A stretch of 42,235 nt of DNA from a virus. The DNA is taken from the UHGV virus genome UHGV-1993760; one strand, 5' to 3'. The position numbers were made by a program, and so were the translations under genes. Below the pieces are notes generated by a model. The model was not told the origin of the DNA and made no database searches. It saw only the letters and a list, made by a program, of their open reading frames with translations. This document shows, in pieces, positions 5,115 through 33,254 of this stretch. How positions within the stretch are numbered: position 1 is the first letter of the stretch; each line of letters opens with the position of its first letter.

Positions 5115-5167
5115 CTCCTTTAAAAAGAAAAGGCAGCCTGAGCTGCCTGAATGACAGGATCCCCGGA

Positions 5168-5686
5168 TTAAACCCGGATGATTTTTTTCAGATCCGCCAG
5201 AACATTAACGCCGTTAATACGACGCACAAATTCCTCCGGAATAATGCAGATGGTTTCCACACCGTCAACAGCCTGACGGTAATAACTCAGTGACATTTCC
5301 ACCGTCACCGAAGCCTCTGCCTGTGACGTTGCGGGACGCGCATCCGGCGTGATACTGGTGATCATCCCCTGCAGAGTTTCCACCTGCCCGCTGGTCGCAT
5401 TCCCCACCTGGTAAGCCTGGCGGACAACAATCTCCGGCGAATAAAGCCCGGCCTGTAATCCCAGCAGCGTAAGCATGGCAACATCATAACCATAAATCTT
5501 AAACGAACAGGTCAGCGCTTCCATGCCGTCATCCACTGCCACCGGTGCATCCATTGCGCCAGTTTTGATATCCACTGTCGTGATATTAATGGCAGGTGGC
5601 GTGTATTCATGTGCCCCCTGAAGGCGGATTCCGCCAGGAAGAAATAACGCCCATGCGCGCAACAGTTTTTTTTCACCCGTCATCAT
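5168..5686 (-). CDS. tail tube protein (P2 FII-like)
   Basis: 172 aa ORF immediately downstream of the sheath gene; size and position typical. Confidence 0.65.
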   Translation of the reverse strand: MMTGEKKLLRAWALFLPGGIRLQGAHEYTPPAINITTVDIKTGAMDAPVAVDDGMEALTCSFKIYGYDVAMLTLLGLQAGLYSPEIVVRQAYQVGNATSGQVETLQGMITSITPDARPATSQAEASVTVEMSLSYYRQAVDGVETICIIPEEFVRRINGVNVLADLKKIIRV

Positions 5687-7158
5687 ACCGTCAGTTCCTC
5701 CAGCGCCAGTTTATTGTTAATCATTGCCCGCAGTGTCAGGCGCTCCAGTGGTGACTTCGGCCCAAAGTCATAATCGATATACAACTGCCCTGCCGCCAGG
5801 GTTTCTGCAGTGTTCAGTTCATCGTTCAGCCATGCACTGCCACCGTGGATCGCGCCCAGATTTTTAAGCTGACGCATATAGGCATTAATGCTGCCAAGAA
5901 TGTCGTCTGCCACATCCCGATCAAGCGGGCGATCGACATAAGGCAGCATGGCCTCCTGGATGCTGTCCTCAATCACATCTGCAGTGCGGCGTACCGGCTC
6001 AAAACGCCACTGACTGTGGGATGTGCACAGACGGTTACCCCAGTGTTTAAAACCGTCATGGCGAATAATGGTGGAGATATTTTCCATGTTCAGCAGGTTT
6101 GCCGTGCAGTTCTGCTCCCCGAGAATAAACGTATCCACCTGCTCCAGACCGGTGATATTCATCACGTCCTGGTTTGATTTGGACCACCACCACCCTTTTT
6201 CGTAATCAATACGGGCACGCAGCCCGGCAGCACGAGCCGAATATGGACGAAATATCGTTTGCCCGCTGTCATCCGTCACTGACACGCGCGGACGCAGCAG
6301 CTCCACACGCCCACCAAATGACGCGCGCCGCTGAACCACATCCTGCGGCGTTGCCATTGAAGGCGAGTCAATATAGGCCACAGCCCGCAGCTTCACGGCA
6401 TACGTTTCCAGCGCCTTTGCCACGCCATCATCCTCACTGTACCCCGTGGCAATGAGGACGCGCGGTTGATAGCCTGTCACGCCCTTACTTTCTGTCAGCG
6501 CCTCCATGGCCTGAATCACCGCCGCACGCTGTTCGGCCTCTTTCGTCTTTGTTTTACTTTCTGCGCGCACCACAATCACCAGCGCACCAGTCTGGTCAAA
6601 AATATCTCGCAGGGCCGGGTATAATGTTCCGGCTGTGCCCAGTTTCCCTGCCTGAGTAATGGCCCCTGCCACCACCACTGGTGTATTGACCGGGAACGCC
6701 TCATCTTCTCCGCCGGATAACGTCAGGCTGAACGGCAACACCACTTTATTTTCAGCGTCTCCTGCATTCAAGGTGCTGACAGCCGCCGTCACAGGCGAAT
6801 CCCCCAGCGCATTCACCACTTCAGTCACACGGTCCGCCGTGGCGTTAACCTGGCTGTGTTCGTCCGTCCCCAGTGTTATCGTCAGGGTCGTACCTTTCAG
6901 CGAGGCCACTGTCTGCGCGTTTTGTTCTGTGGCAGCCACAGCAACAACCGAAATCTTATTACCGGCCCGACCTTCCTGTTTCGCCGTGAAATCCAGCGCC
7001 GTTCCCAGCAGCCAGGAGCCGGCTGTGCCGGAAGCGCACACACCACCAGAGGCGTCCGGCGCTGTCCCCACCAGGCCAATCACTGCCGTGGAGATGGTCT
7101 GCACGGCAACCGTGCCTGTCGTCAGTTCAATGGTTTCAACACCATGTAATCCGGGCAT
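5683..7158 (-). CDS. contractile tail sheath protein (P2 FI-like)
   Basis: 491 aa; N-terminus ...TISTAVIGLVGTA... and C-terminus ...AETLAAGQLYIDYDFGP...LERLTLR... resemble P2 FI as recalled. Confidence 0.8.
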   Translation of the reverse strand: MPGLHGVETIELTTGTVAVQTISTAVIGLVGTAPDASGGVCASGTAGSWLLGTALDFTAKQEGRAGNKISVVAVAATEQNAQTVASLKGTTLTITLGTDEHSQVNATADRVTEVVNALGDSPVTAAVSTLNAGDAENKVVLPFSLTLSGGEDEAFPVNTPVVVAGAITQAGKLGTAGTLYPALRDIFDQTGALVIVVRAESKTKTKEAEQRAAVIQAMEALTESKGVTGYQPRVLIATGYSEDDGVAKALETYAVKLRAVAYIDSPSMATPQDVVQRRASFGGRVELLRPRVSVTDDSGQTIFRPYSARAAGLRARIDYEKGWWWSKSNQDVMNITGLEQVDTFILGEQNCTANLLNMENISTIIRHDGFKHWGNRLCTSHSQWRFEPVRRTADVIEDSIQEAMLPYVDRPLDRDVADDILGSINAYMRQLKNLGAIHGGSAWLNDELNTAETLAAGQLYIDYDFGPKSPLERLTLRAMINNKLALEELTV

Positions 7159-13697: not shown

Positions 13698-14726
13698 TTA
13701 TTTCACCTGAACCACCACAAACGCATCCGGATCCGGCAGCACCATCAACGGCGCAGACTGCGTCATGGTATACTCGCACCCCGGGTCCCCCACCTCTAAC
13801 CAGTGTTTCGGATAACGAATCGCAGAGGTGATCCCTTCACTCAGTGCCTGATTATCCTGAATGGCACCATAACAACGGACGCCTTCCGCCTGAGTGTTCC
13901 CCAGAATCAGTGTGCCTTCCGGCAGATAACGCTGTTCATCCCCGTTTTCATCGACGTAAGCGGTTTTCGCCACCACAATAGCCAGATCACCGTAATAACC
14001 CTTAAAAGAGACTACGGAGCCCAGGTCTTTCAGCGCGGTTTCCAGTTCCGATTTTGAACCACGACGGGTATCCAGTTTTTCACGGAAAAGCTTAAAGCCA
14101 TTCAGCATACGCCAGACCGTGCCATCCATAATCGCGATATTGATGGTCCCGGAGGCAAAATCGCAGTACGCATCCAGATCGTGCGTTGGATCAAAGGTGT
14201 CAGCATTCTGCTGTGACCATCTGTTGCCGCCAGCCTGAGTAATGTTATTGGTGGCAGAGCGCCCAAAATCCACTTCCACCGTCTCAAACTGTTCCCCGCT
14301 CATGGTGTACTTACCCTGCAGAACGGCACTGACCGCCTGCATTTCTTCCACCTGCACAATCGCCTGCTCTTCCTGCTTCAGGTTGTCCGTCAGAATACGC
14401 AGGCGGCGGTAGGCCGGGTCATTAAGACGGGCCGGATCTTCCCCCGGAAGACGTTCCACTGCCTGCTGATAATCAAAGCGGTGTTTGGGTTTTACATAAC
14501 CGGGACGTAACACGCGGGTTTCACCACCACGGCTGCGCAGCACTTTGCCTGACACCACCGGAGACACATACGCCGCAACCGGTGTTTTGCCGGTAATTTT
14601 ATCCAGCATGACTTCCTGAGTATGGAAAGTGATCGTGCGACGAAAGAACAGCTCCAGAAACAGCGCACGAAATTTCACTTTCTGCTCGGTGTACCCGAGT
14701 AACTGACGCGTGGTAAATAACCCCAT
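13698..14726 (-). CDS. major capsid protein (lambda gpE-like)
   Basis: 342 aa; ...KFRALFLELFFRR..., ...PGYVKPKH..., ...EEMQAVSAVLQGKYTMSGE..., ...DTRRGSKSELETA... match recalled lambda E. Confidence 0.9.
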   Translation of the reverse strand: MGLFTTRQLLGYTEQKVKFRALFLELFFRRTITFHTQEVMLDKITGKTPVAAYVSPVVSGKVLRSRGGETRVLRPGYVKPKHRFDYQQAVERLPGEDPARLNDPAYRRLRILTDNLKQEEQAIVQVEEMQAVSAVLQGKYTMSGEQFETVEVDFGRSATNNITQAGGNRWSQQNADTFDPTHDLDAYCDFASGTINIAIMDGTVWRMLNGFKLFREKLDTRRGSKSELETALKDLGSVVSFKGYYGDLAIVVAKTAYVDENGDEQRYLPEGTLILGNTQAEGVRCYGAIQDNQALSEGITSAIRYPKHWLEVGDPGCEYTMTQSAPLMVLPDPDAFVVVQVK

Positions 14727-14795
14727 AATTTATTTTCCTTCAGAAACACAAACGGGCCGCATCGCGACCCGTTTTTTCAGTCAATCACTTCACCA

Positions 14796-15131
14796 TCAGG
14801 CGTGGCTGATGGCACTTCCCACAAATGCGTTGGCTTTTTTCACCGCATCCACAGAGTCAGGCCAGACCAGCGACTCAGTGGCAAACGTACCGCTTTTGTA
14901 GTACGTCAGCGTGGGTTCTGTTCCGGTAAGCGCCAGAGCCAGCACCCCCACTGCCGTTCCGGCTTTCTGACCATCCCATGCCACCAGTTTACCGGTGGCG
15001 TCATCCAGCATCAGTGGCGTCAGTGCAGGCGTGGCAGCACTGATACCACTGGTGGCTGTTGCGGTATGCGCCGGATCGCTTCCGGCAAAAATGTGCACAT
15101 CCGCGCGCTTTTCCGTGGTGGTTTTAATCAT
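14796..15131 (-). CDS. head decoration protein (lambda gpD-like)
   Basis: 111 aa; ...SDPAHTATA...[18 protein letters not shown]...YYKSGTF... closely matches recalled lambda D. Confidence 0.9.
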
Positions 15132-15169: not shown

Positions 15170-16786
15170 TTACGGCATACTCATCAGCAGGTCTTCCTCC
15201 CCGCGCCCGGCAGTTCCGCCACCGGAAACCGCACTGGCAACATGCTGTGCCATAAAGCGATCAAAAAGTGTTTCCTGTGACGGTTGCGATGCCGTCGGCG
15301 CGGCTGCCAGCAGCGTTTTCGCCTGCGCCACCGTCATTCCAGGTTGTTCTGTCAGTGCCTGTGCAAGTTGCTCACGCCCTTTCGCCTCCGGCAGCGCCAT
15401 AATCTGATCGCCGACACTTGCAGACCCCGCAACCGGTGCCGCCGCCAGTAACGTTTTGGCCTGGTCAACGGTCATTCCCGGCTGTTCAGCCAGCGCCTGC
15501 GCGAGTTGTTCACGCCCTTTTGCTTCCGGCAGCGCCATAATCTGATCGCCTGTGCCTGCAGCACCGGCAGCAGGGGCTGCCGCCAGAAACGCTTTCGCCT
15601 GCGCCACCGTCATCCCCGGCTGACCTGCCAGCATCTGTGCCAGTTGCTCACGCCCTTTTGCTTCCGGCAGCGCCATAATCTGATCACCCGTGCTGTCAGT
15701 ACCGGCAACCGGCGCAGCAGCCAGCAACGTTTTCGCCTGCTCAACCGTCATTCCAGGCTGACCTGCCAGCATTTGCGCCAGTTGCTCGCGCCCTTTCGCC
15801 TCCTGACAATTCAGGATCCCCATCACGCGCTGATTTTCCTGGGCCACCGCTTCAGCAACGGTGAGATTTTTAACAGTCATTGCATTCTCCTTCGTAACAG
15901 AGTCATTCAGTGCAGAAACCATCACTTCAACGGCATCTGCAGCATTAATCAGTTGATCAGCCAGACCTGCATCAATGCCTGCCTGACCGTCATAAACGGC
16001 AGCCTCGGTATTCATCACCGCCTCTGAACTCAGCCCCGTATAAAGCGCCACCTTGTCGACAAACATCCGGCGGGCCTCATCAATACGGCGCTGAAAATCT
16101 GCACGCACACCTGCCGGCAATGCCTGAATACTGTTGCCGTCAACCTTGTGCTGCCCGGAGTAAATCAGCGTGATGTCCACCCCTTCCTGTGCCAGTTGTT
16201 TCTCGTAACTGGCGTGCGCCATCATCACGCCAATCGAACCAATTTTTGCCGTCTGCGTGACCAGCCGACGGGTACAGGCTGCCGCCAGCAACATGGCGGC
16301 TGAACAGGCCATGTCATTACACAGCGCCCACACGGGCTTCTGTTCCCGCAGACGGTAAATCATGTCAGCACAGTCAAACGCCCCGGCAGCCTGACCGCCC
16401 GGGCTGTCGATATCCAGCAAAATGCCGCGCACATCCGGATCATTCACCGCCATCTGAAGGCGGGCCGTCAGGCCGTCATAGCCAGTCATGCCGGAGTAAG
16501 GCCGCAGGGTACCCAGTTTATGCACCAGCGTGCCGCTCACCGGCAGAATGGCGATGCCATTCTTCACCTGGTAACTCTTTGCCGGACGCTGACCGCCCAC
16601 CATATAGTCAGTCACAGCCAGTTGCATTCCATCAGCATCAAGCTGAACAGCCTGCTGAGGAACGGCAAGGCTGCCGGCCCCTATCTCTTTACCCAGCGCG
16701 CAAAAGAAAACCCGCGCATAGGCGGGTTCCAGTAAAAGCGGTTCATTAAATGCCATGGCGGCAATATGCGATAAATTACGACGCAT
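15170..16786 (-). CDS. prohead protease / scaffold fusion (lambda C-Nu3-like, S49 peptidase family) with C-terminal tandem repeats
   Basis: 538 aa; N-terminal half has an SppA/S49-like pattern; C-terminal third is four tandem copies of a 46-aa unit (ALPEAKGREQLAQ.L..QPGMTV.QAK..LAAAP...). Confidence 0.8.
   Translation of the reverse strand: MRRNLSHIAAMAFNEPLLLEPAYARVFFCALGKEIGAGSLAVPQQAVQLDADGMQLAVTDYMVGGQRPAKSYQVKNGIAILPVSGTLVHKLGTLRPYSGMTGYDGLTARLQMAVNDPDVRGILLDIDSPGGQAAGAFDCADMIYRLREQKPVWALCNDMACSAAMLLAAACTRRLVTQTAKIGSIGVMMAHASYEKQLAQEGVDITLIYSGQHKVDGNSIQALPAGVRADFQRRIDEARRMFVDKVALYTGLSSEAVMNTEAAVYDGQAGIDAGLADQLINAADAVEVMVSALNDSVTKENAMTVKNLTVAEAVAQENQRVMGILNCQEAKGREQLAQMLAGQPGMTVEQAKTLLAAAPVAGTDSTGDQIMALPEAKGREQLAQMLAGQPGMTVAQAKAFLAAAPAAGAAGTGDQIMALPEAKGREQLAQALAEQPGMTVDQAKTLLAAAPVAGSASVGDQIMALPEAKGREQLAQALTEQPGMTVAQAKTLLAAAPTASQPSQETLFDRFMAQHVASAVSGGGTAGRGEEDLLMSMP
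15251..15811. repeat. four tandem copies of a 138-bp in-frame coding repeat inside the protease/scaffold gene
   Basis: ggcagcgccataatctgatc recurs at a 138-bp period (about 15390, 15528, 15666); the encoded 46-aa units are near-identical. Confidence 0.85.
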
Positions 16787-18347
16787 CGCCTTTTTCTCCC
16801 GTTGTCTGTCGGATCTGCTGCTGAAACGTGTCCTTTATCCAGATGGGGCGGGGAAGACCAGCCGCCTGTCGCTCCTGGCTTTCACGCAGTTGCTGGCGGA
16901 AAATCTCCTGATAGTCATCGCCCATCAGGGCCAGCTCTTTCTCGTACGTGCTCAGGCCACCTTCAATACGCATCACCGCTTCCTGCACTTCCTTAAGGCC
17001 ATCAATCGCCATGCGACCGGCACCAATCCACTCGGCACGACACCATCCGGAACGGGCCTCCCAGAATGAAAAACGGGATTTCGGCGGGCGGATCACACCG
17101 CGAATAAGAGCTTCCTCCAGCCAGCAGGCAAACATCTGTGATGCCAGCCGGCTGGCCACAAATTTTCGTTTGCCCATAAAATACCGCCACGACTCATTGG
17201 CGGATGCCCTGGCACTGGAATAACTGACCTGTGAATAATCACGGGAAAGCTGTTCATAGGACACCCCCAGTCCGGCAGCGATGTAACGTAACAGCGCCTT
17301 TTCCAGTTCAGAGAAACCATTATCTGCATTCTGCGCTGTCTGCAGATTCAGTGAATCCCCCGGATAAAGATGCGGAATACGGACCCCGCCCAGCTTTACC
17401 GTATTGGTGGCGTAATAACGCGCGTAGCCTTTCATGATGGTGTTCAGGGGATTTTTACCGCCATCTCCCACCCCGGCGATATATTCAAATGCTTTTTCCG
17501 AATCCAGCGTGGATTCAATCGTCGCGGCATACATCGCCCGCACCACCGCCGACTGCAGTTGCGTGGCCTGCAGTGTGTCGAGCATCTTGAGACGCTCCAT
17601 GACAGAATAAAACTGGTTGGCCCCGCGCGTCTGCCCGTCCTCCTGCGGCTGAAACACATGGATCATTCCCGGTCGCCCGGAGGGCAGCGTCGCCGCAATC
17701 CGCGTCCAGTTGCTGACACCGTAACCGGGCCAGTCATCGTCCTGAACATGGTAGGCCAGTGCTTTTCCGTACCGGTTGATTTCCACCCCGGCACGCATAA
17801 AACGATCGCCGGTACCATAACCGGGTGTACTGACACGTTTCGGGCTGATGGTCTTGAATTTCGTCCGGAATAATGACGTGGATTCCGTATCCCATACGGG
17901 CTGGACAAAAATTTCACCGTTAAATGTATGAACGCCCACCCCTTCACGAATAAATTCGGTAAACGAGCGACGCCCCTCCACATCCATCGAACCAAACACC
18001 GGATCGCAGAATTCCATCCACGCTGCCTCAACATCTTCAATAAAGACATGTGAATCGGCTTCCGACATCCCCAGCCAGCGCCAGTTGGGCCGGTAACTCA
18101 GACGAAACATGTGTCCGACGATATGGTCTTTATGAATTTCAACGGCGTTTGCGGCAATACCGTTATTGCGGACCAGATCATCCGCACGGGCGTTACCCAG
18201 CTGAATGGAAGGTAAGAGCGCCACGTCGGCACTTTCCGGTGCAGGCAGCCATTCCGCAAGCTGCCCGCCAAATCCGGTACCCCCTCCGGAATACCCCATA
18301 CTCTGCCGCAGTGGCTGCCCGTGAAGATCCACCAGTTCCCCGTTCAC
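16776..18347 (-). CDS. portal protein (lambda gpB-like)
   Basis: 523 aa; ...GGGTGFGGQL..., ...GNARADDLVRNNG..., ...DGQTRGANQFYSVMERLKMLDTLQ..., ...MAIDGLKEVQEAVM... match recalled lambda B. Confidence 0.9.
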   Translation of the reverse strand: MNGELVDLHGQPLRQSMGYSGGGTGFGGQLAEWLPAPESADVALLPSIQLGNARADDLVRNNGIAANAVEIHKDHIVGHMFRLSYRPNWRWLGMSEADSHVFIEDVEAAWMEFCDPVFGSMDVEGRRSFTEFIREGVGVHTFNGEIFVQPVWDTESTSLFRTKFKTISPKRVSTPGYGTGDRFMRAGVEINRYGKALAYHVQDDDWPGYGVSNWTRIAATLPSGRPGMIHVFQPQEDGQTRGANQFYSVMERLKMLDTLQATQLQSAVVRAMYAATIESTLDSEKAFEYIAGVGDGGKNPLNTIMKGYARYYATNTVKLGGVRIPHLYPGDSLNLQTAQNADNGFSELEKALLRYIAAGLGVSYEQLSRDYSQVSYSSARASANESWRYFMGKRKFVASRLASQMFACWLEEALIRGVIRPPKSRFSFWEARSGWCRAEWIGAGRMAIDGLKEVQEAVMRIEGGLSTYEKELALMGDDYQEIFRQQLRESQERQAAGLPRPIWIKDTFQQQIRQTTGEKGDAS

Positions 18348-27431: not shown

Positions 27432-28589
27432 ATGACCACACTCAAAGAACTCAAAGAAGAGCTTGCTCAGATTCAAGATGAAAACGCGAAAAATAGAAAA
27501 AAAGCTGAAATTGCAGCCTTGGTCACTTCTGCCGACAACGAGATTAGGCTTGCTCAGAGAAATATTGGATACAACGTACGTGAATGGACCGTTGAATTAA
27601 TTGTACAAAAGTATGGCAATAATCTTGAAACTGACAAAAACGAACTTTTTATTCCTGATTATCAACGCGATTACAAATGGGATATCAAAACAGCCTCTCG
27701 ATTCATCGAAAGTATATTATTAGATTTTCCAATCCCGTACCTCTACATCTCCGACGTATTTAATGAAGATCCTGAGTTGGATGGTCGTGTAGAAATTATT
27801 GACGGTTCACAAAGGATTCGCTCAATTTACTACTTTTGGAACAATCAGTTTGAATTGAAAGACTTAAAAGAACTCAAAAGTTTAGAGGGCTTCAAATTTT
27901 CAGATCTTTTGGCTAGCCGCCAGAGGCGATTTTTAAGGGCATCACTAAGATTTATTGAATTGAAAGGTGATGTTGAGGAGCAACATAGAAGAGATTTATT
28001 CGAAAGAATAAATTCAGGTGTTAAGAGACTGGAAGCGATGGAGGTTAGACATGGTTCAGATGCGGCCACTTCAATTTTCTATAGGGATGTTGTGACTCCT
28101 TGCTCAATAAATCCACTTTTCGCTAGTCTAGCTCCATTATCAGACCGGAAGCGTTCGAATGGCGATCATCGTGAGTTAGTTTTGAGATTTTTTGCATACT
28201 TAAATGATTTAGAAAATTATAAGGGTTATGTCGCTCCTTTTATTGACAATTATCTTAATGTTCAGGCCGAAAGGGTCACACAACAAGATGTTGACAAATT
28301 TAAACATGATTTTGAAAGCATGCTTGCTTTTGTAGATGCTCATTTCCCTATGGGGTTTAAAAAGACACCAACAAGCAAAACCACCCCCCGTGCTAGATAC
28401 GAAGCCATAGCAGTGGGAACTGCTCTTGCCTTAAAAGCCAATCCACATCTACAGGCTCCGGTTATTCCTGTAGGAGACTGGCTGTTTGGGGAGGAATTTG
28501 AAACCATAGTTACTGCTGATAGTGCCAACAACACCAGCCAACTCAAAAACAGAATATTTTATGTCAAAGATAAATTATTAGGAATGTAA
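27432..28589 (+). CDS. DUF262 (ParB/Srx-fold, GmrSD N-terminal-like) domain protein
   Basis: 385 aa; ...FIPDYQRDYKW... (aa 73-83) and ...EIIDGSQRIRS... (aa 121-131) match the DUF262 signatures as I recall them (QR.Y.W and DGQQR-like); no recognisable C-terminal HNH/DUF1524 motif; AAAGGAA RBS; AT-rich gene. Confidence 0.65.
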   Translation: MTTLKELKEELAQIQDENAKNRKKAEIAALVTSADNEIRLAQRNIGYNVREWTVELIVQKYGNNLETDKNELFIPDYQRDYKWDIKTASRFIESILLDFPIPYLYISDVFNEDPELDGRVEIIDGSQRIRSIYYFWNNQFELKDLKELKSLEGFKFSDLLASRQRRFLRASLRFIELKGDVEEQHRRDLFERINSGVKRLEAMEVRHGSDAATSIFYRDVVTPCSINPLFASLAPLSDRKRSNGDHRELVLRFFAYLNDLENYKGYVAPFIDNYLNVQAERVTQQDVDKFKHDFESMLAFVDAHFPMGFKKTPTSKTTPRARYEAIAVGTALALKANPHLQAPVIPVGDWLFGEEFETIVTADSANNTSQLKNRIFYVKDKLLGM

Positions 28590-28591
28590 CT

Positions 28592-29281
28592 ATGAGTTTG
28601 ATTGATTTAAGAGATGAATACGAAGAAAGAGCAAGAGATATTATGGAATTGCTTTCTCTTGCGTCATCTTTAGAGGCTCAGACTCAGCAGTTAGATCAGC
28701 AAACGCATAAAGATGAAATAGAATCAAATACCCTTAGGGTTAACATTTTAAAATCATCCGTGCACATGATGCTGTACAATCAGGTTGAAAACACTGCCAG
28801 AGGATGCATTGAGTCAATTTATGACCATTTGCAAGATAATGAAGTAAATTACGCATCACTCAGGGAGAAATTCCAAGTAAATATCTTGCACCGTATCATT
28901 TCAGATAATGAATCGGGAAAATCTCTTTATCAAAAAATTGGTTCCGATATATCTAAAAGGATCATTTCAGCCTCATTAAACATACGTAAAGAATTCAATG
29001 GTAATGTTTGCAAGTCTGTATTGCACAAAATAACACAAGCTTACGGAATAACTGTTGCAAACTCACCAGAGTGTAGAAATGGTGTTGACTTAGATTTACT
29101 TAAAGATATCAGAAATGAGCTGGCACATGGAAGTACCAGCTTTTCTAAAAAAGGTCAAATAGACCCTTTAGAAGAAGTCAAATCGAGGTCAGAAAGAATT
29201 GATCTATATTTGCGTTTATTAATCAACTCAACAGAAAATTATATTACCTCTAACGGGTATTTATCCCCTCAACATGTCTGA
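28592..29281 (+). CDS. HEPN-motif protein (predicted RNase-like effector), translationally coupled to the DUF262 gene
   Basis: 229 aa; ATG 2 nt after the DUF262 stop; mostly helical; C-proximal ...DIRNELAHGS... (nt 29111-29128) fits the HEPN Rx4-6H motif. Confidence 0.45.
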   Translation: MSLIDLRDEYEERARDIMELLSLASSLEAQTQQLDQQTHKDEIESNTLRVNILKSSVHMMLYNQVENTARGCIESIYDHLQDNEVNYASLREKFQVNILHRIISDNESGKSLYQKIGSDISKRIISASLNIRKEFNGNVCKSVLHKITQAYGITVANSPECRNGVDLDLLKDIRNELAHGSTSFSKKGQIDPLEEVKSRSERIDLYLRLLINSTENYITSNGYLSPQHV

Positions 29282-30290
29282 TAAATGTTTCCCCTATTAT
29301 CTGACCAATTATAGGGGGAACAGCATTTCCAATCATTGTCCCCAATTTTTGGAATGAAAAAGGCGTCTCCTTGTCAAGGAATTTATAATCCATTGGAAAG
29401 GATTGCAAAATCGCAGCTTCACGCAAAGTTATGGCGCGATTTTGCTCAGGATGGCCAAATCGTCCATTTCCATATCCATAACACTGGGTAGTTATCGTAG
29501 GGCTAGTATCGTCCCAAACCATCCGTCCATAAACGCTTTTATAGGTAGCACCTGAATTCTTTTTATGACAGTCTGCTCTAATTTCTTCAGGCCAGTCATC
29601 CCACGTACCACCAGGTAAAGAATGCATGATTCGTTTAAGATTGATATCCATCAATTTAGGCGAACGATGCAAGGGATCGCTTTCCAGCTTCTCACCTGCC
29701 CCTACTTTTGGCAACCTACCAATAGCATCCTTAACAGTAACTTTACGGCTAACTTTTTTTTGATCAAGGCTGATCGGCCCCAATTGGGAACCAATTAGAA
29801 TTAATCTACGTCTATTTTGAGGTAAGCCATACTCAGAACATCTTACAACGTCGTACCACAAATGATATCCAAGAGTCTTTAATGCACTAACAAACCCTTC
29901 AAAAACCTTATGGTTTCTAAGTTGAGGAACATTCTCCATCGTCACAAGCTCTGGCATGACATCACTTACAAGCCTTTGAAACTCATATAACAAACGCCAC
30001 TTTGTATCGTCTTTACGGCTATTTGGATTACGATACTTGGAAAACGGTTGGCAAGGAGCACATCCAGCAAGCAATCTAATATTTCCTTCCTTGAACATAG
30101 CAGACACATCGCAGGATTGCAGTTCTGTAACTGACTGATTAATGAACTGCGTTAAAGGATTATTGCTCTCAATAGCAAAACGGCAGGATTCATCAATATC
30201 AATACCATGAGAAACCTCAATCCCGGCTTTTTTTAGCCCAAAAGTTAAGCCCCCCGCACCACAAAAAATGTCTACTGCCTGAATGTTCAC
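29250..30290 (-). CDS. DNA (cytosine-5)-methyltransferase
   Basis: 346 aa; motif I DIFCGAGG, motif IV GCAPCQPFS, ENV, QNRRR, C-terminal GNAVPP; GTG start with GGAG 6 nt upstream; 3' end overlaps the convergent HEPN gene by about 32 bp. Confidence 0.9.
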   Translation of the reverse strand: MNIQAVDIFCGAGGLTFGLKKAGIEVSHGIDIDESCRFAIESNNPLTQFINQSVTELQSCDVSAMFKEGNIRLLAGCAPCQPFSKYRNPNSRKDDTKWRLLYEFQRLVSDVMPELVTMENVPQLRNHKVFEGFVSALKTLGYHLWYDVVRCSEYGLPQNRRRLILIGSQLGPISLDQKKVSRKVTVKDAIGRLPKVGAGEKLESDPLHRSPKLMDINLKRIMHSLPGGTWDDWPEEIRADCHKKNSGATYKSVYGRMVWDDTSPTITTQCYGYGNGRFGHPEQNRAITLREAAILQSFPMDYKFLDKETPFSFQKLGTMIGNAVPPIIGQIIGETFIRHVEGINTR

Positions 30291-30722: not shown

Positions 30723-30979
30723 CAGCGCAGTACCTCCTGCACCAGTTTTTCGAACTTTCCAACTTTGGTTTCCAGCTCTGCCACACAATCCACCAGCTCA
30801 TCCACTGCTTTTTGTGCGCGGTGTTTCGCCTGCATCAGTTCCCTGAGCGCTGGCACCATATCCTTACGAATGGCATCTTTTGTTACGCCTGTCTTTTCCA
30901 GTTGTTCCGCCTGTCGTAACATTTCCTGTGCCTGTTTACGTAATTGTTCAGGCGTAAAAGTCATGGTCTGGTTGTTCAA
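30722..30979 (-). CDS. small hypothetical coiled-coil protein
   Basis: 85 aa ORF between helicase and Q; stop overlaps the Q start (TGATG). Confidence 0.4.
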   Translation of the reverse strand: MNNQTMTFTPEQLRKQAQEMLRQAEQLEKTGVTKDAIRKDMVPALRELMQAKHRAQKAVDELVDCVAELETKVGKFEKLVQEVLR

Positions 30980-32367
30980 AAGAAACGCTCCATCTTACTG
31001 CTGTCGGTTCGCTTATTGCTGTATCTGCGCGGCTGGGGCTGCTGCATTGGGGTGGAAAGAATCTGTGCGCTTTCCTGGTCTACGGGCAGAAAATGTCCGT
31101 TATAAAAACGCCGGTAAATCGTCCCCAGAGAACCGTTACGTTGTTTCGTGATATTGATTTCTGCAATGCCTCTGGCCTGCGTATCCGGGTTGTACACTTC
31201 ATCCCTGTAAAGCATCAGAATGATGTCTGCATCCGCCTCTATTTCTCCGGAATTTTTCAGGTCTGAGTTCATAGGGCGTTTATTGGGCCTGGACTCCACA
31301 CCACGGGAAAGCTGGCTCAGCGCAATCAACGGAAAACCACCGGATTTTGCCAGGCCTTTAAGCCCCTTTGAGATTTCACCCACGGCAAGGTCATGACGCC
31401 CCGTGGTTCGGGTTTTTATCAGCCCGAGATAATCAACCACCACCAGCGCCGTTTCCGGATGTTTAATCAGGTGATGTTTCGTTGTTGCGCATATCTCATC
31501 AATGGTCAGGTTCGCCTGGTCCACCATCCAGATATTGCGCCCGGTCATCCGCCCCACTCCTTGTGAGAAACGTGCCCAGTCTTCGTCTTCAAAGTGAGTG
31601 ACAGATTTCAGGCGTGATACCGGCATTCCTCCAGCCGCAGATACCATGCGTTCACCAATCTGGATGTTCGCCATTTCCATTGTGAACAGAAGAACACCAT
31701 GCCCCTGCTCAGTCACCTTGTCGATGATATCCAGCGCCAGTTCGGTTTTGCCCATCGAAGGACGTGCAGCAATAAATACCAGGTCGCCAGGCTCCATGCC
31801 GCCCGTTTTTGCGTCCAGTTCATCAATACCGGTCATCAACGTCCTGGATTTCTCCAGCCCCTGATTCCGGCATTCAACACGCTCAACCACTTCCGGAAGC
31901 ACATCATCAATATGTACCGGCTGAATAACGCCCTTTTCCGTCGACAATGAGGCCATCATGTTCTGCGCATCCTTCAGAGCATCTTCAGCTGCTTCACAGG
32001 TATGCGCATCACGTAATTTCTGCAGCGCCTCATTCAGTGTTTTTTCTGCATCACGCAATGCGGCATTACGCCGCAACGCCGTAACATAGTGCTCCAGTGA
32101 CGACTTCACCCAGGTTTTGCGCCCGGTATCAGTAATCACCGGGGCAAGTTCCGGCATCTCATTACACAACAGCACAGGGTCAATCACGCCTGAAACACGG
32201 GCCTGTCGGCAGATGCCTGTGTAGATATCCCGATACGCTCGTACAGAAAAAACGTCTGCCGGCAATGTGGCCAGAATATCCATCACTTCATGATCTGCCC
32301 CTCGCAGAAAAAACGCGCCAATGACAGCGCCTTCCAGGTCATCGTTACGCCAGACAGGAGAAGTCAT
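30976..32367 (-). CDS. replicative DNA helicase (DnaB family)
   Basis: ATG at 32367 (ATGA overlap with the loader gene); Walker A ...ARPSMGKTELALD...; DnaB-like C-terminal RecA fold pattern. Confidence 0.85.
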   Translation of the reverse strand: MTSPVWRNDDLEGAVIGAFFLRGADHEVMDILATLPADVFSVRAYRDIYTGICRQARVSGVIDPVLLCNEMPELAPVITDTGRKTWVKSSLEHYVTALRRNAALRDAEKTLNEALQKLRDAHTCEAAEDALKDAQNMMASLSTEKGVIQPVHIDDVLPEVVERVECRNQGLEKSRTLMTGIDELDAKTGGMEPGDLVFIAARPSMGKTELALDIIDKVTEQGHGVLLFTMEMANIQIGERMVSAAGGMPVSRLKSVTHFEDEDWARFSQGVGRMTGRNIWMVDQANLTIDEICATTKHHLIKHPETALVVVDYLGLIKTRTTGRHDLAVGEISKGLKGLAKSGGFPLIALSQLSRGVESRPNKRPMNSDLKNSGEIEADADIILMLYRDEVYNPDTQARGIAEINITKQRNGSLGTIYRRFYNGHFLPVDQESAQILSTPMQQPQPRRYSNKRTDSSKMERFF

Positions 32368-33254
32368 GCTGCCACACCTCCGATATGTGCACGGTAACTT
32401 TCCCAACCAAACACCAGGCAGTTACGCCCACCATCAGTAACGCGATCCACAATCCGTTCACCAATGGACTCCTTAAGTTGGTCAAATGTCAGATTACTAA
32501 TCAAAATTGTCGGTAAAACGCTTTCGTAACGTGCATTGATGATTTCCTGCAGGATGGTTATCTCTGTTGGCGTACCGAACTGCACACCAACCTCATCGAT
32601 GATGAGCAGGTCCAGCGATACAAAATGGTCAATAACTTCATCTTCAGTGCGTTCAGAATTGTGACGCCAGGTATTTTTCACAGCGCGGGTCAGTCGCATG
32701 ACATCCGTAATTTCGACAGTCGCCAGGTGGTGGCGAATAATATTTTTTGCCATTGATACAGCCAGGTGATTTTTCCCGGTACCGCAATTGCCAATCATGA
32801 TCATGCTGGTACCCGCAGCAAGACACTTCTCCCATGAACTGGCATAGCGCCGACAAGCCTCAAGATTTCTCTGTGCGTCAGCATTCACAGCCTGGTAGTT
32901 CTCAAACTCGCAGTCCTGGAAGCGGCGGGCAATACCAGCTCTGTCAAGTAATTCATGAACTTTCAGGATGCGTAACGCCTCCTGTACCTGATCCAGTTCA
33001 TTCGCAATGCAGGTCGGGCAACCAGACACCCGTTTGATGGTTTCCCCACGAACATCTGGCCCTTTCAACACCAGACGTGTGTATTTCCCGTGTTTCTCAC
33101 ACTCAGCAGTTTCCTCGCTTGTCAGCCAGTGTTCACAGCGCCACGGACGCTTCCCGGCACGGGCAAACTGCATCTCCTCCTCCAGTTCCGCCCTGCGGTT
33201 GAGCAATTGCGCTTTATCGTGTTGTGCGTAGTGTTTTTTTAACTGTTCAAACAT
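32364..33254 (-). CDS. helicase loader / AAA+ ATPase (DnaC-IstB-like; lambda P functional analogue)
   Basis: 296 aa; Walker A-like GNCGTGKNHLA, Walker B LLIIDEVG; N-terminal Cys cluster. Confidence 0.65.
   Translation of the reverse strand: MFEQLKKHYAQHDKAQLLNRRAELEEEMQFARAGKRPWRCEHWLTSEETAECEKHGKYTRLVLKGPDVRGETIKRVSGCPTCIANELDQVQEALRILKVHELLDRAGIARRFQDCEFENYQAVNADAQRNLEACRRYASSWEKCLAAGTSMIMIGNCGTGKNHLAVSMAKNIIRHHLATVEITDVMRLTRAVKNTWRHNSERTEDEVIDHFVSLDLLIIDEVGVQFGTPTEITILQEIINARYESVLPTILISNLTFDQLKESIGERIVDRVTDGGRNCLVFGWESYRAHIGGVAA

What the first reader, a model, noticed from the sequence alone, without database searches (positions are those of the whole stretch)
15251..15811. Four tandem 138-bp in-frame repeats expand the scaffold-like C-terminus of the protease
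The C-terminal third of the C-like protease consists of four near-identical 46-aa units. That length-variable, recombination-prone array makes the protein about 100 aa longer than lambda C and may tune scaffold length or capsid assembly. It can also cause assembly collapse in short-read data.
Basis: seen in the sequence. Interest (0 to 1): 0.4.

Follow-up and report, generated by a model that had tools for sequence, protein, structure and literature searches.

The report
Four-copy scaffold module in prophage protease
The four 138-bp repeats are real and encode four copies of a small helical module that lambda's head protease/scaffold carries once and phage 21 three times, so this is an ordinary copy-number variant of a known phage head-assembly gene.

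Summary
A 138-bp, in-frame, four-unit tandem array lies at window 15269-15820 on the minus strand. It sits in a 538-aa lambda C-like S49 head protease gene (15170-16786), between the portal gene and the D/E-like capsid genes.

The units are not near-identical. They are 64-80% identical in DNA, with dS 0.6-1.3 between copies and dN/dS 0.02-0.30. They are therefore old, selected protein modules, not fresh slippage products or an assembly artefact. The same 731-bp C-terminal span occurs in 105 complete E. coli genomes.

Each unit is a roughly 37-aa predicted three-helix module plus a roughly 9-aa Ala/Gly/Ser/Thr linker. Lambda C/Nu3 has one copy. Phage 21 gp5/gp6 has three, annotated in GenBank M81255 as 'Tri boxes, function unknown'. 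Of the 150 best matching protein clusters in public databases, 138 have one copy.

A conserved internal ATG with an AAGGAG Shine-Dalgarno site (15880) predicts a nested 236-aa Nu3-like scaffold that contains all four units.

Alleles with 3, 4 and 5 units sit beside 342-aa capsid proteins that are 96-98% identical. This gives no support for capsid-size tuning.

Most likely function (inferred): redundant, multivalent interaction modules of the scaffold. Low interest; a new member of a known kind.

The parts
15170..16786 (-). Lambda C-like head maturation protease / scaffold gene, 538 aa. Annotated as 'S49 family peptidase' WP_112026723.1 in E. coli CEA224S.
   Evidence: ORF list. Pfam Peptidase_S49 2.8e-33 and PHROG 53 'head maturation protease' 2.6e-215. 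100% identical copy in NZ_CP166080.1.
15917..16351 (-). S49 (SppA-like) protease domain, aa 146-290.
   Evidence: Pfam PF01343, 115.5 bits against a cutoff of 24.9. phmmer match to B. subtilis SppA 3rst/4kwb, 1.5e-16, with the 'CSAA' serine (S162) aligned to the serine of SppA 'AASGG'.
15170..15880 (-). Nested in-frame Nu3-like scaffolding ORF, 236 aa. Start ATG at 15880..15878 (Met303 of the long protein).
   Evidence: The Met lies at the position homologous to the phage 21 gene 6 start (annotated with an RBS in M81255 and OL657228) and to lambda Met309. 115 of 116 homologues keep a Met there. Expression was not tested.
15887..15892 (-). Shine-Dalgarno AAGGAG, 6 nt upstream of the internal ATG.
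   Evidence: Sequence read directly. Lambda has AGGAGG-n4-ATG and phage 21 has GAGGAGG-n4-ATG at the same place.
15683..15820 (-). Unit 1 (aa 323-368): GILNCQEAKGREQLAQMLAGQPGMTVEQAKTLLAAAP plus linker VAGTDSTGD. It is preceded by the leader helix aa 303-322.
   Evidence: AlphaFold2 model of aa 303-368 has mean pLDDT 88 and three helices.
15545..15682 (-). Unit 2 (aa 369-414).
   Evidence: pLDDT about 80 in the full-length model. Orthologous dN/dS 0.22.
15407..15544 (-). Unit 3 (aa 415-460).
   Evidence: Orthologous dN/dS 0.10.
15269..15406 (-). Unit 4 (aa 461-506). The core is conserved; its linker (TASQPSQET) is unlike the other three.
   Evidence: Orthologous dN/dS 0.07.
15173..15268 (-). 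Non-repeated C-terminal tail (aa 507-538, LFDRFMAQH...EEDLLMSMP). It is shared with phage 21 (MFEHFMANH...VKMLMAMP) and, more loosely, with lambda (LDRLMQG...NDLLNTPV).
   Evidence: Two predicted helices, at low confidence.
16776..18347 (-). Context: lambda-family portal gene, overlapping the start of the protease gene.
   Evidence: Pfam Phage_portal_2 5.3e-95.
14796..15131 (-). Context: lambda D-like head decoration gene.
   Evidence: Pfam HDPD 1e-23.
13698..14726 (-). Context: lambda E-like major capsid protein gene, 342 aa.
   Evidence: Pfam Phage_cap_E 1.4e-65. 83% identical to phage 21 gp7 and 59% to lambda E.

Best explanation
The 138-bp array is coding sequence for four tandem copies of a small protein module. 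Each copy has a roughly 37-aa predicted three-helix core, [QG]I[LM]xxxEAKGREQLAQxLxxQPGMTVxQAKxxLAAAP, and a roughly 9-aa flexible Ala/Gly/Ser/Thr linker.

The array lies in the C-terminal region shared by two nested products of one gene. One is a 538-aa lambda C-like S49 prohead protease. The other is a 236-aa Nu3-like scaffolding protein, started at an internal SD-ATG at 15880.

The module is the best-conserved element of this scaffold family. It is normally present once. It was triplicated in the phage 21/Gifsy lineage (the 'Tri boxes') and is present four times here.

Shown here:
- homology, copy numbers and the nested start signal;
- purifying selection on every copy;
- stability of the four-copy state;
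- independence of unit number from the capsid protein sequence.

Inferred from lambda C/Nu3 biology:
- The modules act as protein-protein interaction beads on a flexible string.
- They give the scaffold, and the protease that shares them, several equivalent contacts with the capsid protein shell, with other scaffold molecules or with the portal initiator during prohead assembly.
- They are then degraded by the protease before DNA packaging.
- Extra copies add valency or redundancy rather than changing capsid geometry.
For: Array and frame.

Gene identity and head-module context.

One copy in lambda C (aa 363-399) and three in phage 21 gp5, annotated in M81255 as Tri1/Tri/Tri3 box.

A profile of the unit finds 384 protein clusters among 1.84 billion representatives. 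Of the best 150, 138 have one copy. The copy lies near the C-terminus of 400-550-aa S49 fusions or of 100-250-aa stand-alone proteins.

The three best BFVD structural matches are S49 prohead proteases (TM 0.78-0.81).

The internal Met and SD are conserved in lambda, phage 21 and 115 of 116 homologues.

Models: three helices, pLDDT 88 for unit 1 and about 80 for units 2-4, with pLDDT falling below 50 in two of the three linkers (361-364, 406-410) and less in the third.

Selection: paralogous dS 0.62-1.26 with dN/dS 0.02-0.30; orthologous dN/dS 0.07-0.22 for each unit.

Four-unit span unchanged in 105 complete E. coli genomes.

3-, 4- and 5-unit alleles sit with 95.6-97.7% identical 342-aa capsid proteins.

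The lambda literature records Nu3-Nu3, Nu3-C, Nu3-B and Nu3-E interactions: PMC3224144.
Against: No experiment or structure assigns a function to this module in any phage. GenBank M81255 labels the phage 21 boxes 'function unknown'.

Expression of the 236-aa product is inferred from signals and homology only.

The 3- and 5-unit alleles of the close lineage come from draft or short-read assemblies and could be artefacts. That weakens the 'unit number is free to vary with the same capsid protein' argument within this lineage. The comparison of lambda, phage 21 and this prophage stands on finished sequences.
Confidence: 0.75

Rival explanations
1. Length ruler or size tuner: the units and linkers mainly set the physical length of the scaffold, and unit number adjusts capsid size or shape.
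For: Scaffold length differs greatly among relatives: Nu3 131 aa in lambda, 200 aa in phage 21, 236 aa here. The linkers are flexible.
Against: Capsid proteins are collinear (341-342 aa) across the 1-, 3- and 4-unit phages. They are 96-98% identical across 3-, 4- and 5-unit alleles. The cores, not the linkers, carry the conservation, with dN/dS 0.07-0.22 per unit. From my own knowledge, lambda and phage 21 both make T=7 heads that package lambda-sized DNA.
Confidence: 0.1
2. Assembly artefact: the copy number in this window is wrong because of repeat collapse or expansion.
For: Tandem repeats can be mis-assembled. Units 2 and 3 share a 35-nt exact run.
Against: The units differ at 20-36% of positions, so ordinary reads place them unambiguously. 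The same 1617-bp gene and 731-bp C-terminal span are found in 105 independently finished E. coli genomes, one of them 100% identical. The reading frame is intact and every unit is under purifying selection.
Confidence: 0.01
3. Recent, hypervariable slippage or contingency repeat that switches protein length at high frequency.
For: Other alleles show very recent events. Two 129-nt units are identical in the 5-unit allele. A 114-nt exact run links two units in the Cronobacter-type allele. Lineage-specific substitutions are shared by units of one protein.
Against: In this allele dS between units is 0.62-1.26. The copy number is fixed at four across alleles that differ by up to 14% in DNA. A period of 138 bp with diverged copies is not a slippage substrate.
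Confidence: 0.03
4. The repeat matters as DNA or RNA (protein-binding sites, a structured RNA, or an antisense gene) rather than as protein.
For: One phage 21 record marks CII-site pattern matches inside the homologous gene. Plus-strand ORFs of 55 and 173 aa overlap the array.
Against: Differences between units are concentrated at synonymous sites of the minus-strand frame. No TTGYN6TTGY match falls in the array, and the window holds fewer matches than shuffles do. There is no Rfam hit and no promoter- or terminator-like site in the array. The antisense ORFs are Arg/Cys-rich mirror images of a GC-rich gene.
Confidence: 0.02

Closest known systems
Phage 21 genes 5/6 (head protease and scaffold) with 'Tri1/Tri/Tri3 boxes' (GenBank M81255; OL657228)
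   Same: Same gene position and the same nested SD-ATG start. The long protein is about 68% identical over the aligned 83% of the query. The same module is repeated in tandem in the shared C-terminal region, followed by a homologous tail. The neighbouring capsid protein is 83% identical.
   Different: Three units instead of four. The phage 21 units are much more diverged from one another and have position-specific orthologues in Salmonella prophages. The units here are homogenised, 82-91% identical in the core.
Bacteriophage lambda C protease / Nu3 scaffold (overlapping genes; Shaw & Murialdo 1980; Medina et al. 2010, cited via PMC8508860 and PMC3224144)
   Same: S49 protease domain. Position between portal B and D/E. 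Internal in-frame start with an SD at the homologous Met. One copy of the same module (aa 363-399, GILNCEEAHGREEQARVLAETPGMTVKTARRILAAAP) and a related C-terminal tail.
   Different: One unit. A longer Ser/Thr/Ala-rich segment separates the Nu3 start from the unit (54 aa vs 20 aa). Total length is 439 aa vs 538 aa. The lambda head is joined to a siphovirus tail, whereas here it is joined to a P2-like contractile tail.
Gifsy-1 and other Salmonella prophage gpC homologues
   Same: Same family; 58-66% identical (Gifsy-1 itself 66%). Three tandem units among the Salmonella prophage proteins counted.
   Different: Three units with position-specific sequences.
Single-copy S49 prohead protease-scaffold fusions and stand-alone small scaffolds of diverse phages (PHROGs 53, 8399, 8940, 1999; examples are Salmonella phage 37 and Synechococcus virus S-ESS1)
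   Same: Same module, consensus ERxRIxxIL.L.EAKGRE.LA..LA..PGMTV..AK.LLAAAP, near the C-terminus.
   Different: One copy in 138 of the 150 best clusters.
P22 gp8 scaffolding protein (C-terminal helix-turn-helix coat-binding domain) and herpesvirus UL26/UL26.5 nested protease/scaffold. These are functional analogues, cited from my own knowledge.
   Same: A small helical element at the scaffold C-terminus mediates incorporation into the procapsid. In herpesviruses a protease shares its C-terminus with an independently translated scaffold.
   Different: No sequence or significant structural similarity was found. Neither has a tandemly repeated module.
Bacterial signal peptide peptidase SppA (MEROPS S49)
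   Same: The protease domain is homologous: 3rst/4kwb at 1.5e-16, with the catalytic serine aligned.
   Different: SppA has no scaffold region or repeats. NCBIfam SppA models score far below their cutoffs.

Membership tests
Peptidase family S49 (SppA / lambda gpC type) | Significant match to the S49 domain profile | tested here: met
   PF01343, 115.5 bits against a gathering score of 24.9, aa 146-290. PDB SppA 1.5e-16.
Peptidase family S49 (SppA / lambda gpC type) | Catalytic serine nucleophile conserved | tested here: met
   S162 in 'MACSAAM' aligns with the serine of SppA 'MAASGGY'. It is invariant in 32 homologues.
Peptidase family S49 (SppA / lambda gpC type) | General-base lysine of the Ser/Lys dyad | tested here: inconclusive
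   In the pairwise alignment the SppA 'IKSG' lysine faces Y209. H213 and K214 are invariant nearby. The catalytic partner cannot be assigned without a reliable model; the protease-domain pLDDT is low.
Lambda C/Nu3-type nested protease-scaffold gene | Located between a lambda-family portal gene and D-like and E-like capsid genes | tested here: met
   Order is Phage_portal_2, S49, HDPD, Phage_cap_E on the minus strand.
Lambda C/Nu3-type nested protease-scaffold gene | In-frame internal start with a ribosome-binding site at the homologous position | tested here: met
   AAGGAG-n6-ATG at 15892-15878. Lambda and phage 21 have SD-ATG at the aligned Met. 115 of 116 homologues keep the Met.
Lambda C/Nu3-type nested protease-scaffold gene | The short product is actually made, acts as a scaffold and is degraded by the long product | not testable with these tools
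   Needs proteomics and genetics.
Phage 21 'Tri box' repeat-bearing scaffolds | Tandem copies of the EAKGRE...PGMTV...LAAAP module in the region shared by protease and scaffold | tested here: met
   An HMM of the unit finds 4 copies here (spacing 46 aa), 3 in phage 21 and 1 in lambda. The Tri boxes are annotated in M81255.
Phage 21 'Tri box' repeat-bearing scaffolds | Exactly three units with position-specific sequences | tested here: not met
   There are four units, and they are homogenised relative to one another. This is therefore a copy-number variant, not the phage 21 arrangement.
P22-type scaffolding protein (coat-binding helix-turn-helix) | Sequence or structural similarity to the gp8 C-terminal domain | tested here: not met

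The most novel reading that the evidence does not exclude
The number of three-helix modules may be an evolvable valency dial for lambda-type scaffolds. Unequal crossing-over and gene conversion between units (seen as 1, 3, 4 and 5 copies and as homogenised units) would change how many capsid, portal or scaffold contacts each Nu3 and each protease molecule makes. Different copy numbers would be selected for assembly rate or fidelity, for protease loading, or for coping with mosaic head-tail combinations or satellite interference. If so, these natural alleles are a ready-made series for dissecting how a lambda-type scaffold engages its shell, which is still structurally unresolved.
Probability: 0.15. 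Interest if true: 0.45.

Novelty: new member of a known kind. Interest (0 to 1): 0.15.

Why it matters
It matters little as a discovery. The gene family, the nested protease/scaffold arrangement and the repeated box (three copies in phage 21) were already described. This allele is already in RefSeq and in about 2% of complete E. coli genomes.

Its modest value is practical:
- It defines the unit precisely as a roughly 37-aa three-helix module that Pfam-A does not cover, present once in most of the 384 matching protein clusters.
- It shows that every copy is under purifying selection.
- It points to natural 1-, 3-, 4- and 5-copy alleles, the 3- to 5-copy ones paired with nearly identical capsid proteins. 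These could be used to test what this unexplained part of lambda-type scaffolds binds.
- It shows annotators that the 236-aa nested scaffold gene is missing from the RefSeq annotation of this prophage (checked in E. coli CEA224S and BCE049).

Tried and rejected
- Full-length AlphaFold2 model with 32 homologues. The protease domain was poor (mean pLDDT 54), so I did not use it for fold search or catalytic-site assignment.
- Pfam and NCBIfam on the scaffold part. Only sub-threshold noise appeared (T2SSK, DUF732, HU, YmfL), so I rejected these hits.
- DNA- or RNA-level function. The CII-site pattern, Rfam and promoter/terminator scans found nothing in the array.
- Literature. No open-access paper discussing the Tri boxes or repeats in Nu3-type scaffolds was found. 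Medina et al. 2010 could not be retrieved, and a PMC id I guessed for it returned an unrelated paper.
- Isolated phages. No record in the phage collection carries this four-unit gene. The nearest are three-unit genes at 68% protein identity or less.
- The 3-unit allele P0028 as proof of recent unit loss. I downgraded it. It is listed only from the Logan source, which I take to be k=31 short-read assemblies (my knowledge), and its breakpoint lies in a 31-nt exact run.

Full report
OBSERVATION

Tandem Repeats Finder reports a single array at 15296-15803: period 138 bp, 3.7 copies, 81% matches, no indels, score 601. Identity at lag 138 across 15269-15820 is 0.75, against 0.27 +/- 0.04 at all other lags (z = 12).

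The array lies inside the minus-strand ORF 15170-16786 (538 aa). In protein register there are four 46-aa units:
- unit 1: aa 323-368 (window 15683-15820)
- unit 2: aa 369-414 (15545-15682)
- unit 3: aa 415-460 (15407-15544)
- unit 4: aa 461-506 (15269-15406)

A 32-aa unique tail follows the array.

The phrase 'near-identical' is an overstatement. Over the full 46 aa, units are 64-80% identical in DNA and 65-80% in protein. Over the 33-aa core they are 76-84% in DNA and 82-91% in protein.

WHAT THE GENE IS

The protein has a Peptidase_S49 domain at aa 146-290 (2.8e-33). It matches PHROG 53 'head maturation protease' (2.6e-215) and B. subtilis SppA structures (1.5e-16), with the catalytic serine aligned.

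It sits between a lambda-family portal gene (16776-18347) and D-like decoration (14796-15131) and E-like major capsid (13698-14726) genes. It is therefore the counterpart of lambda gene C.

Window positions 1-21392 are 99.8% identical to a prophage in the E. coli CEA224S chromosome, where the gene is annotated 'S49 family peptidase'. That prophage combines a lambda-type head module with a P2-type contractile tail.

THE NESTED SCAFFOLD

It does. AAGGAG (15892-15887) lies 6 nt upstream of an ATG at 15880-15878 (Met303). This predicts a 236-aa product that contains all four units.

Lambda has AGGAGG-n4-ATG at the aligned Met309. Phage 21 has GAGGAGG-n4-ATG at Met302, which is the annotated start of its scaffold gene 6, with an annotated RBS. 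A Met is kept at this position in 115 of 116 homologues, although the neighbouring residues vary. Expression itself was not tested.

THE UNIT IS A KNOWN, WIDESPREAD MODULE

Lambda C carries one copy (aa 363-399). Phage 21 gp5/gp6 carries three.

Among the 120 closest database proteins, the unit count is:
- 3 in the phage 21/Salmonella type (about 500 aa);
- 4 in the 538-aa lineage, which includes E. coli, E. marmotae, E. albertii, Citrobacter and Salmonella;
- 5 in two proteins;
- 3 in two 492-aa proteins of the same lineage.

A profile of the four window units, searched against 1.84 billion representative proteins, found 384 clusters at E <= 1e-3. Of the best 150, 138 have a single copy. The copy lies a median of 49 aa from the C-terminus in the 400-550-aa S49 fusions, and also in 100-250-aa stand-alone proteins. 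The consensus is ERxRIxxIL.L.EAKGRE.LA..LA..PGMTV..AK.LLAAAP.

One copy is therefore the rule. Three to five copies is a lineage-specific expansion in enterobacterial lambda-type head modules.

Pfam-A has no model for the module. Several PHROGs annotated as scaffold or capsid-assembly proteins cover it.

STRUCTURE

With a 64-sequence alignment, AlphaFold2 models aa 303-368 (leader helix plus unit 1) at mean pLDDT 88. It predicts a long helix, a turn at EAKG, and two short helices.

In the full-length model, units 2-4 reach pLDDT of about 80. Confidence drops at the linkers: below 50 at 361-364 and 406-410, and less sharply at the third linker. This fits folded beads on a flexible string.

AGE, SELECTION AND STABILITY

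Between units of this gene, dS is 0.62-1.26 and dN/dS is 0.02-0.30. Between this gene and an allele 9% different in protein (E. coli BCE049), each unit has dN/dS of 0.07-0.22, similar to the protease domain at 0.10. Every copy is therefore maintained as protein.

The longest exact run shared by two units here is 8-35 nt.

The 731-bp C-terminal region keeps the same span in nearly all of the 105 complete E. coli genomes that carry it, at 86-100% identity. The exceptions among the rows listed are alleles 5 or 9 bp shorter and a few that align only partly. The full 1617-bp gene is found in 105 genomes, one of them identical.

At a wider scale the array does evolve in concert:
- Units within one protein share lineage-specific substitutions.
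- The Cronobacter-type allele has a 114-nt exact run between units 1 and 2.
- The five-unit allele has two units identical over 129 nt.

The 3-unit allele P0028 is listed only from the Logan source, which I take to be k=31 short-read assemblies (my knowledge). Its junction falls in a 31-nt exact run of the BCE049-type allele. It may therefore be a collapse.

DOES UNIT NUMBER TRACK THE CAPSID?

The neighbouring major capsid protein is 342 aa. It is 83% identical, without gaps, to phage 21 gp7 (3 units) and 59% identical to lambda E (341 aa, 1 unit).

Alleles with 3, 4 and 5 units sit beside 342-aa capsid proteins 95.6-97.7% identical to this one. Their portals are 94-97% identical and their decoration proteins 86-96%.

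Unit number therefore varies without matching change in the shell protein. This argues against a size-determining role and for tolerance or redundancy. The caveat is that the 3- and 5-unit alleles come from draft assemblies.

MECHANISM (INFERRED)

In lambda, Nu3 and C share their C-terminal part. Nu3 interacts with itself, with C, with portal B and with capsid protein E, and is removed before packaging (PMC3224144; Shaw & Murialdo 1980 and Medina et al. 2010, as cited in PMC8508860).

The module is the most conserved element of that shared part. The most likely role of the four copies is as repeated interaction modules. They would tether the scaffold, and the protease that shares them, into the assembling prohead with higher valency.

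Which partner they bind is not known. The conserved, non-repeated tail may be the shell-binding element instead.

ALTERNATIVES

- A ruler or size-tuning role is disfavoured by the capsid comparisons.
- An assembly artefact and a contingency repeat are excluded for this allele.
- A DNA- or RNA-level role is unsupported. Differences between units are concentrated at synonymous sites of the minus frame. There are no CII-pattern, Rfam, promoter or terminator signals in the array.

VERDICT

It is a four-copy version of a module described as triplicated in phage 21 and single in lambda. It counts as a new member of a known kind and is of low interest. Its use is as a natural copy-number series for studying lambda-type scaffolds.

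Noticed in passing
window 1-21392, compared with L004 (E. coli CEA224S NZ_CP166080.1): The prophage is a mosaic. It has a lambda-type head module (terminase, gpW, portal, C, D, E, FI) joined to a P2-type contractile tail (sheath, tube, baseplate V/W/J/I, gpD, gpX). In CEA224S it lies next to a tRNA-Ser gene and hyaA. A Cronobacter-type relative (L010) has nearly the same head module joined to lambda-type siphovirus tail genes (Z, U, tail tube).
   Followed up: partly
window 27432-29281 (+) and 29250-30290 (-): A GmrSD_N (DUF262)-domain protein (385 aa) is followed directly by a HEPN (MAE_28990-like) protein (229 aa). They converge on a C-5 cytosine DNA methylase gene (346 aa). This looks like a prophage-borne defence or modification island. 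This part of the window differs from the CEA224S prophage.
   Followed up: no
window 14750-14774 (-): A strong hairpin (11 pairs, 7 G-C) lies in the 69-nt gap between the D-like decoration gene and the E-like capsid gene. The tail after the stem has five T in eight bases but no uninterrupted T run. It could modulate the D:E expression ratio or transcript stability.
   Followed up: no
L001 / J02459.1 (lambda) 5132-5737: The classic lambda GenBank record annotates nu3 as 201 aa, starting at Met239 of C. The SD-preceded Met that aligns with the phage 21 gene 6 start and with the start proposed here is Met309 (131 aa). Lambda Met239 corresponds to an Ile in this prophage's protein, by eye against its sequence, so a 201-aa-type start is not available here.
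   Followed up: partly
proteins P0118/P0120 (551 aa), P0044 (657 aa), P0041 (610 aa): Some phage 21-type alleles carry a recent in-frame partial duplication that creates a fourth unit. One E. coli protein repeats about 150 aa, including the Nu3 start. One is fused to baseplate protein V. These are likely recombination or assembly/annotation oddities.
   Followed up: no
L004 20001-21617 and L005 1201-2817 (RefSeq annotation): In the two E. coli genomes checked, RefSeq annotates only the 538-aa 'S49 family peptidase'. The nested 236-aa scaffold ORF is not annotated, unlike in the lambda and phage 21 records.
   Followed up: yes
window 40922-42235 (+), 38958-39785 (+), 30976-33254 (-): The far end of the window carries a tyrosine integrase (Arm-DNA-bind_2 plus Phage_integrase), an SPFH/Band 7 protein, and a DnaB-type helicase with an IstB/DnaC-like loader. 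The window therefore spans most of the prophage, from the tail genes to int.
   Followed up: no
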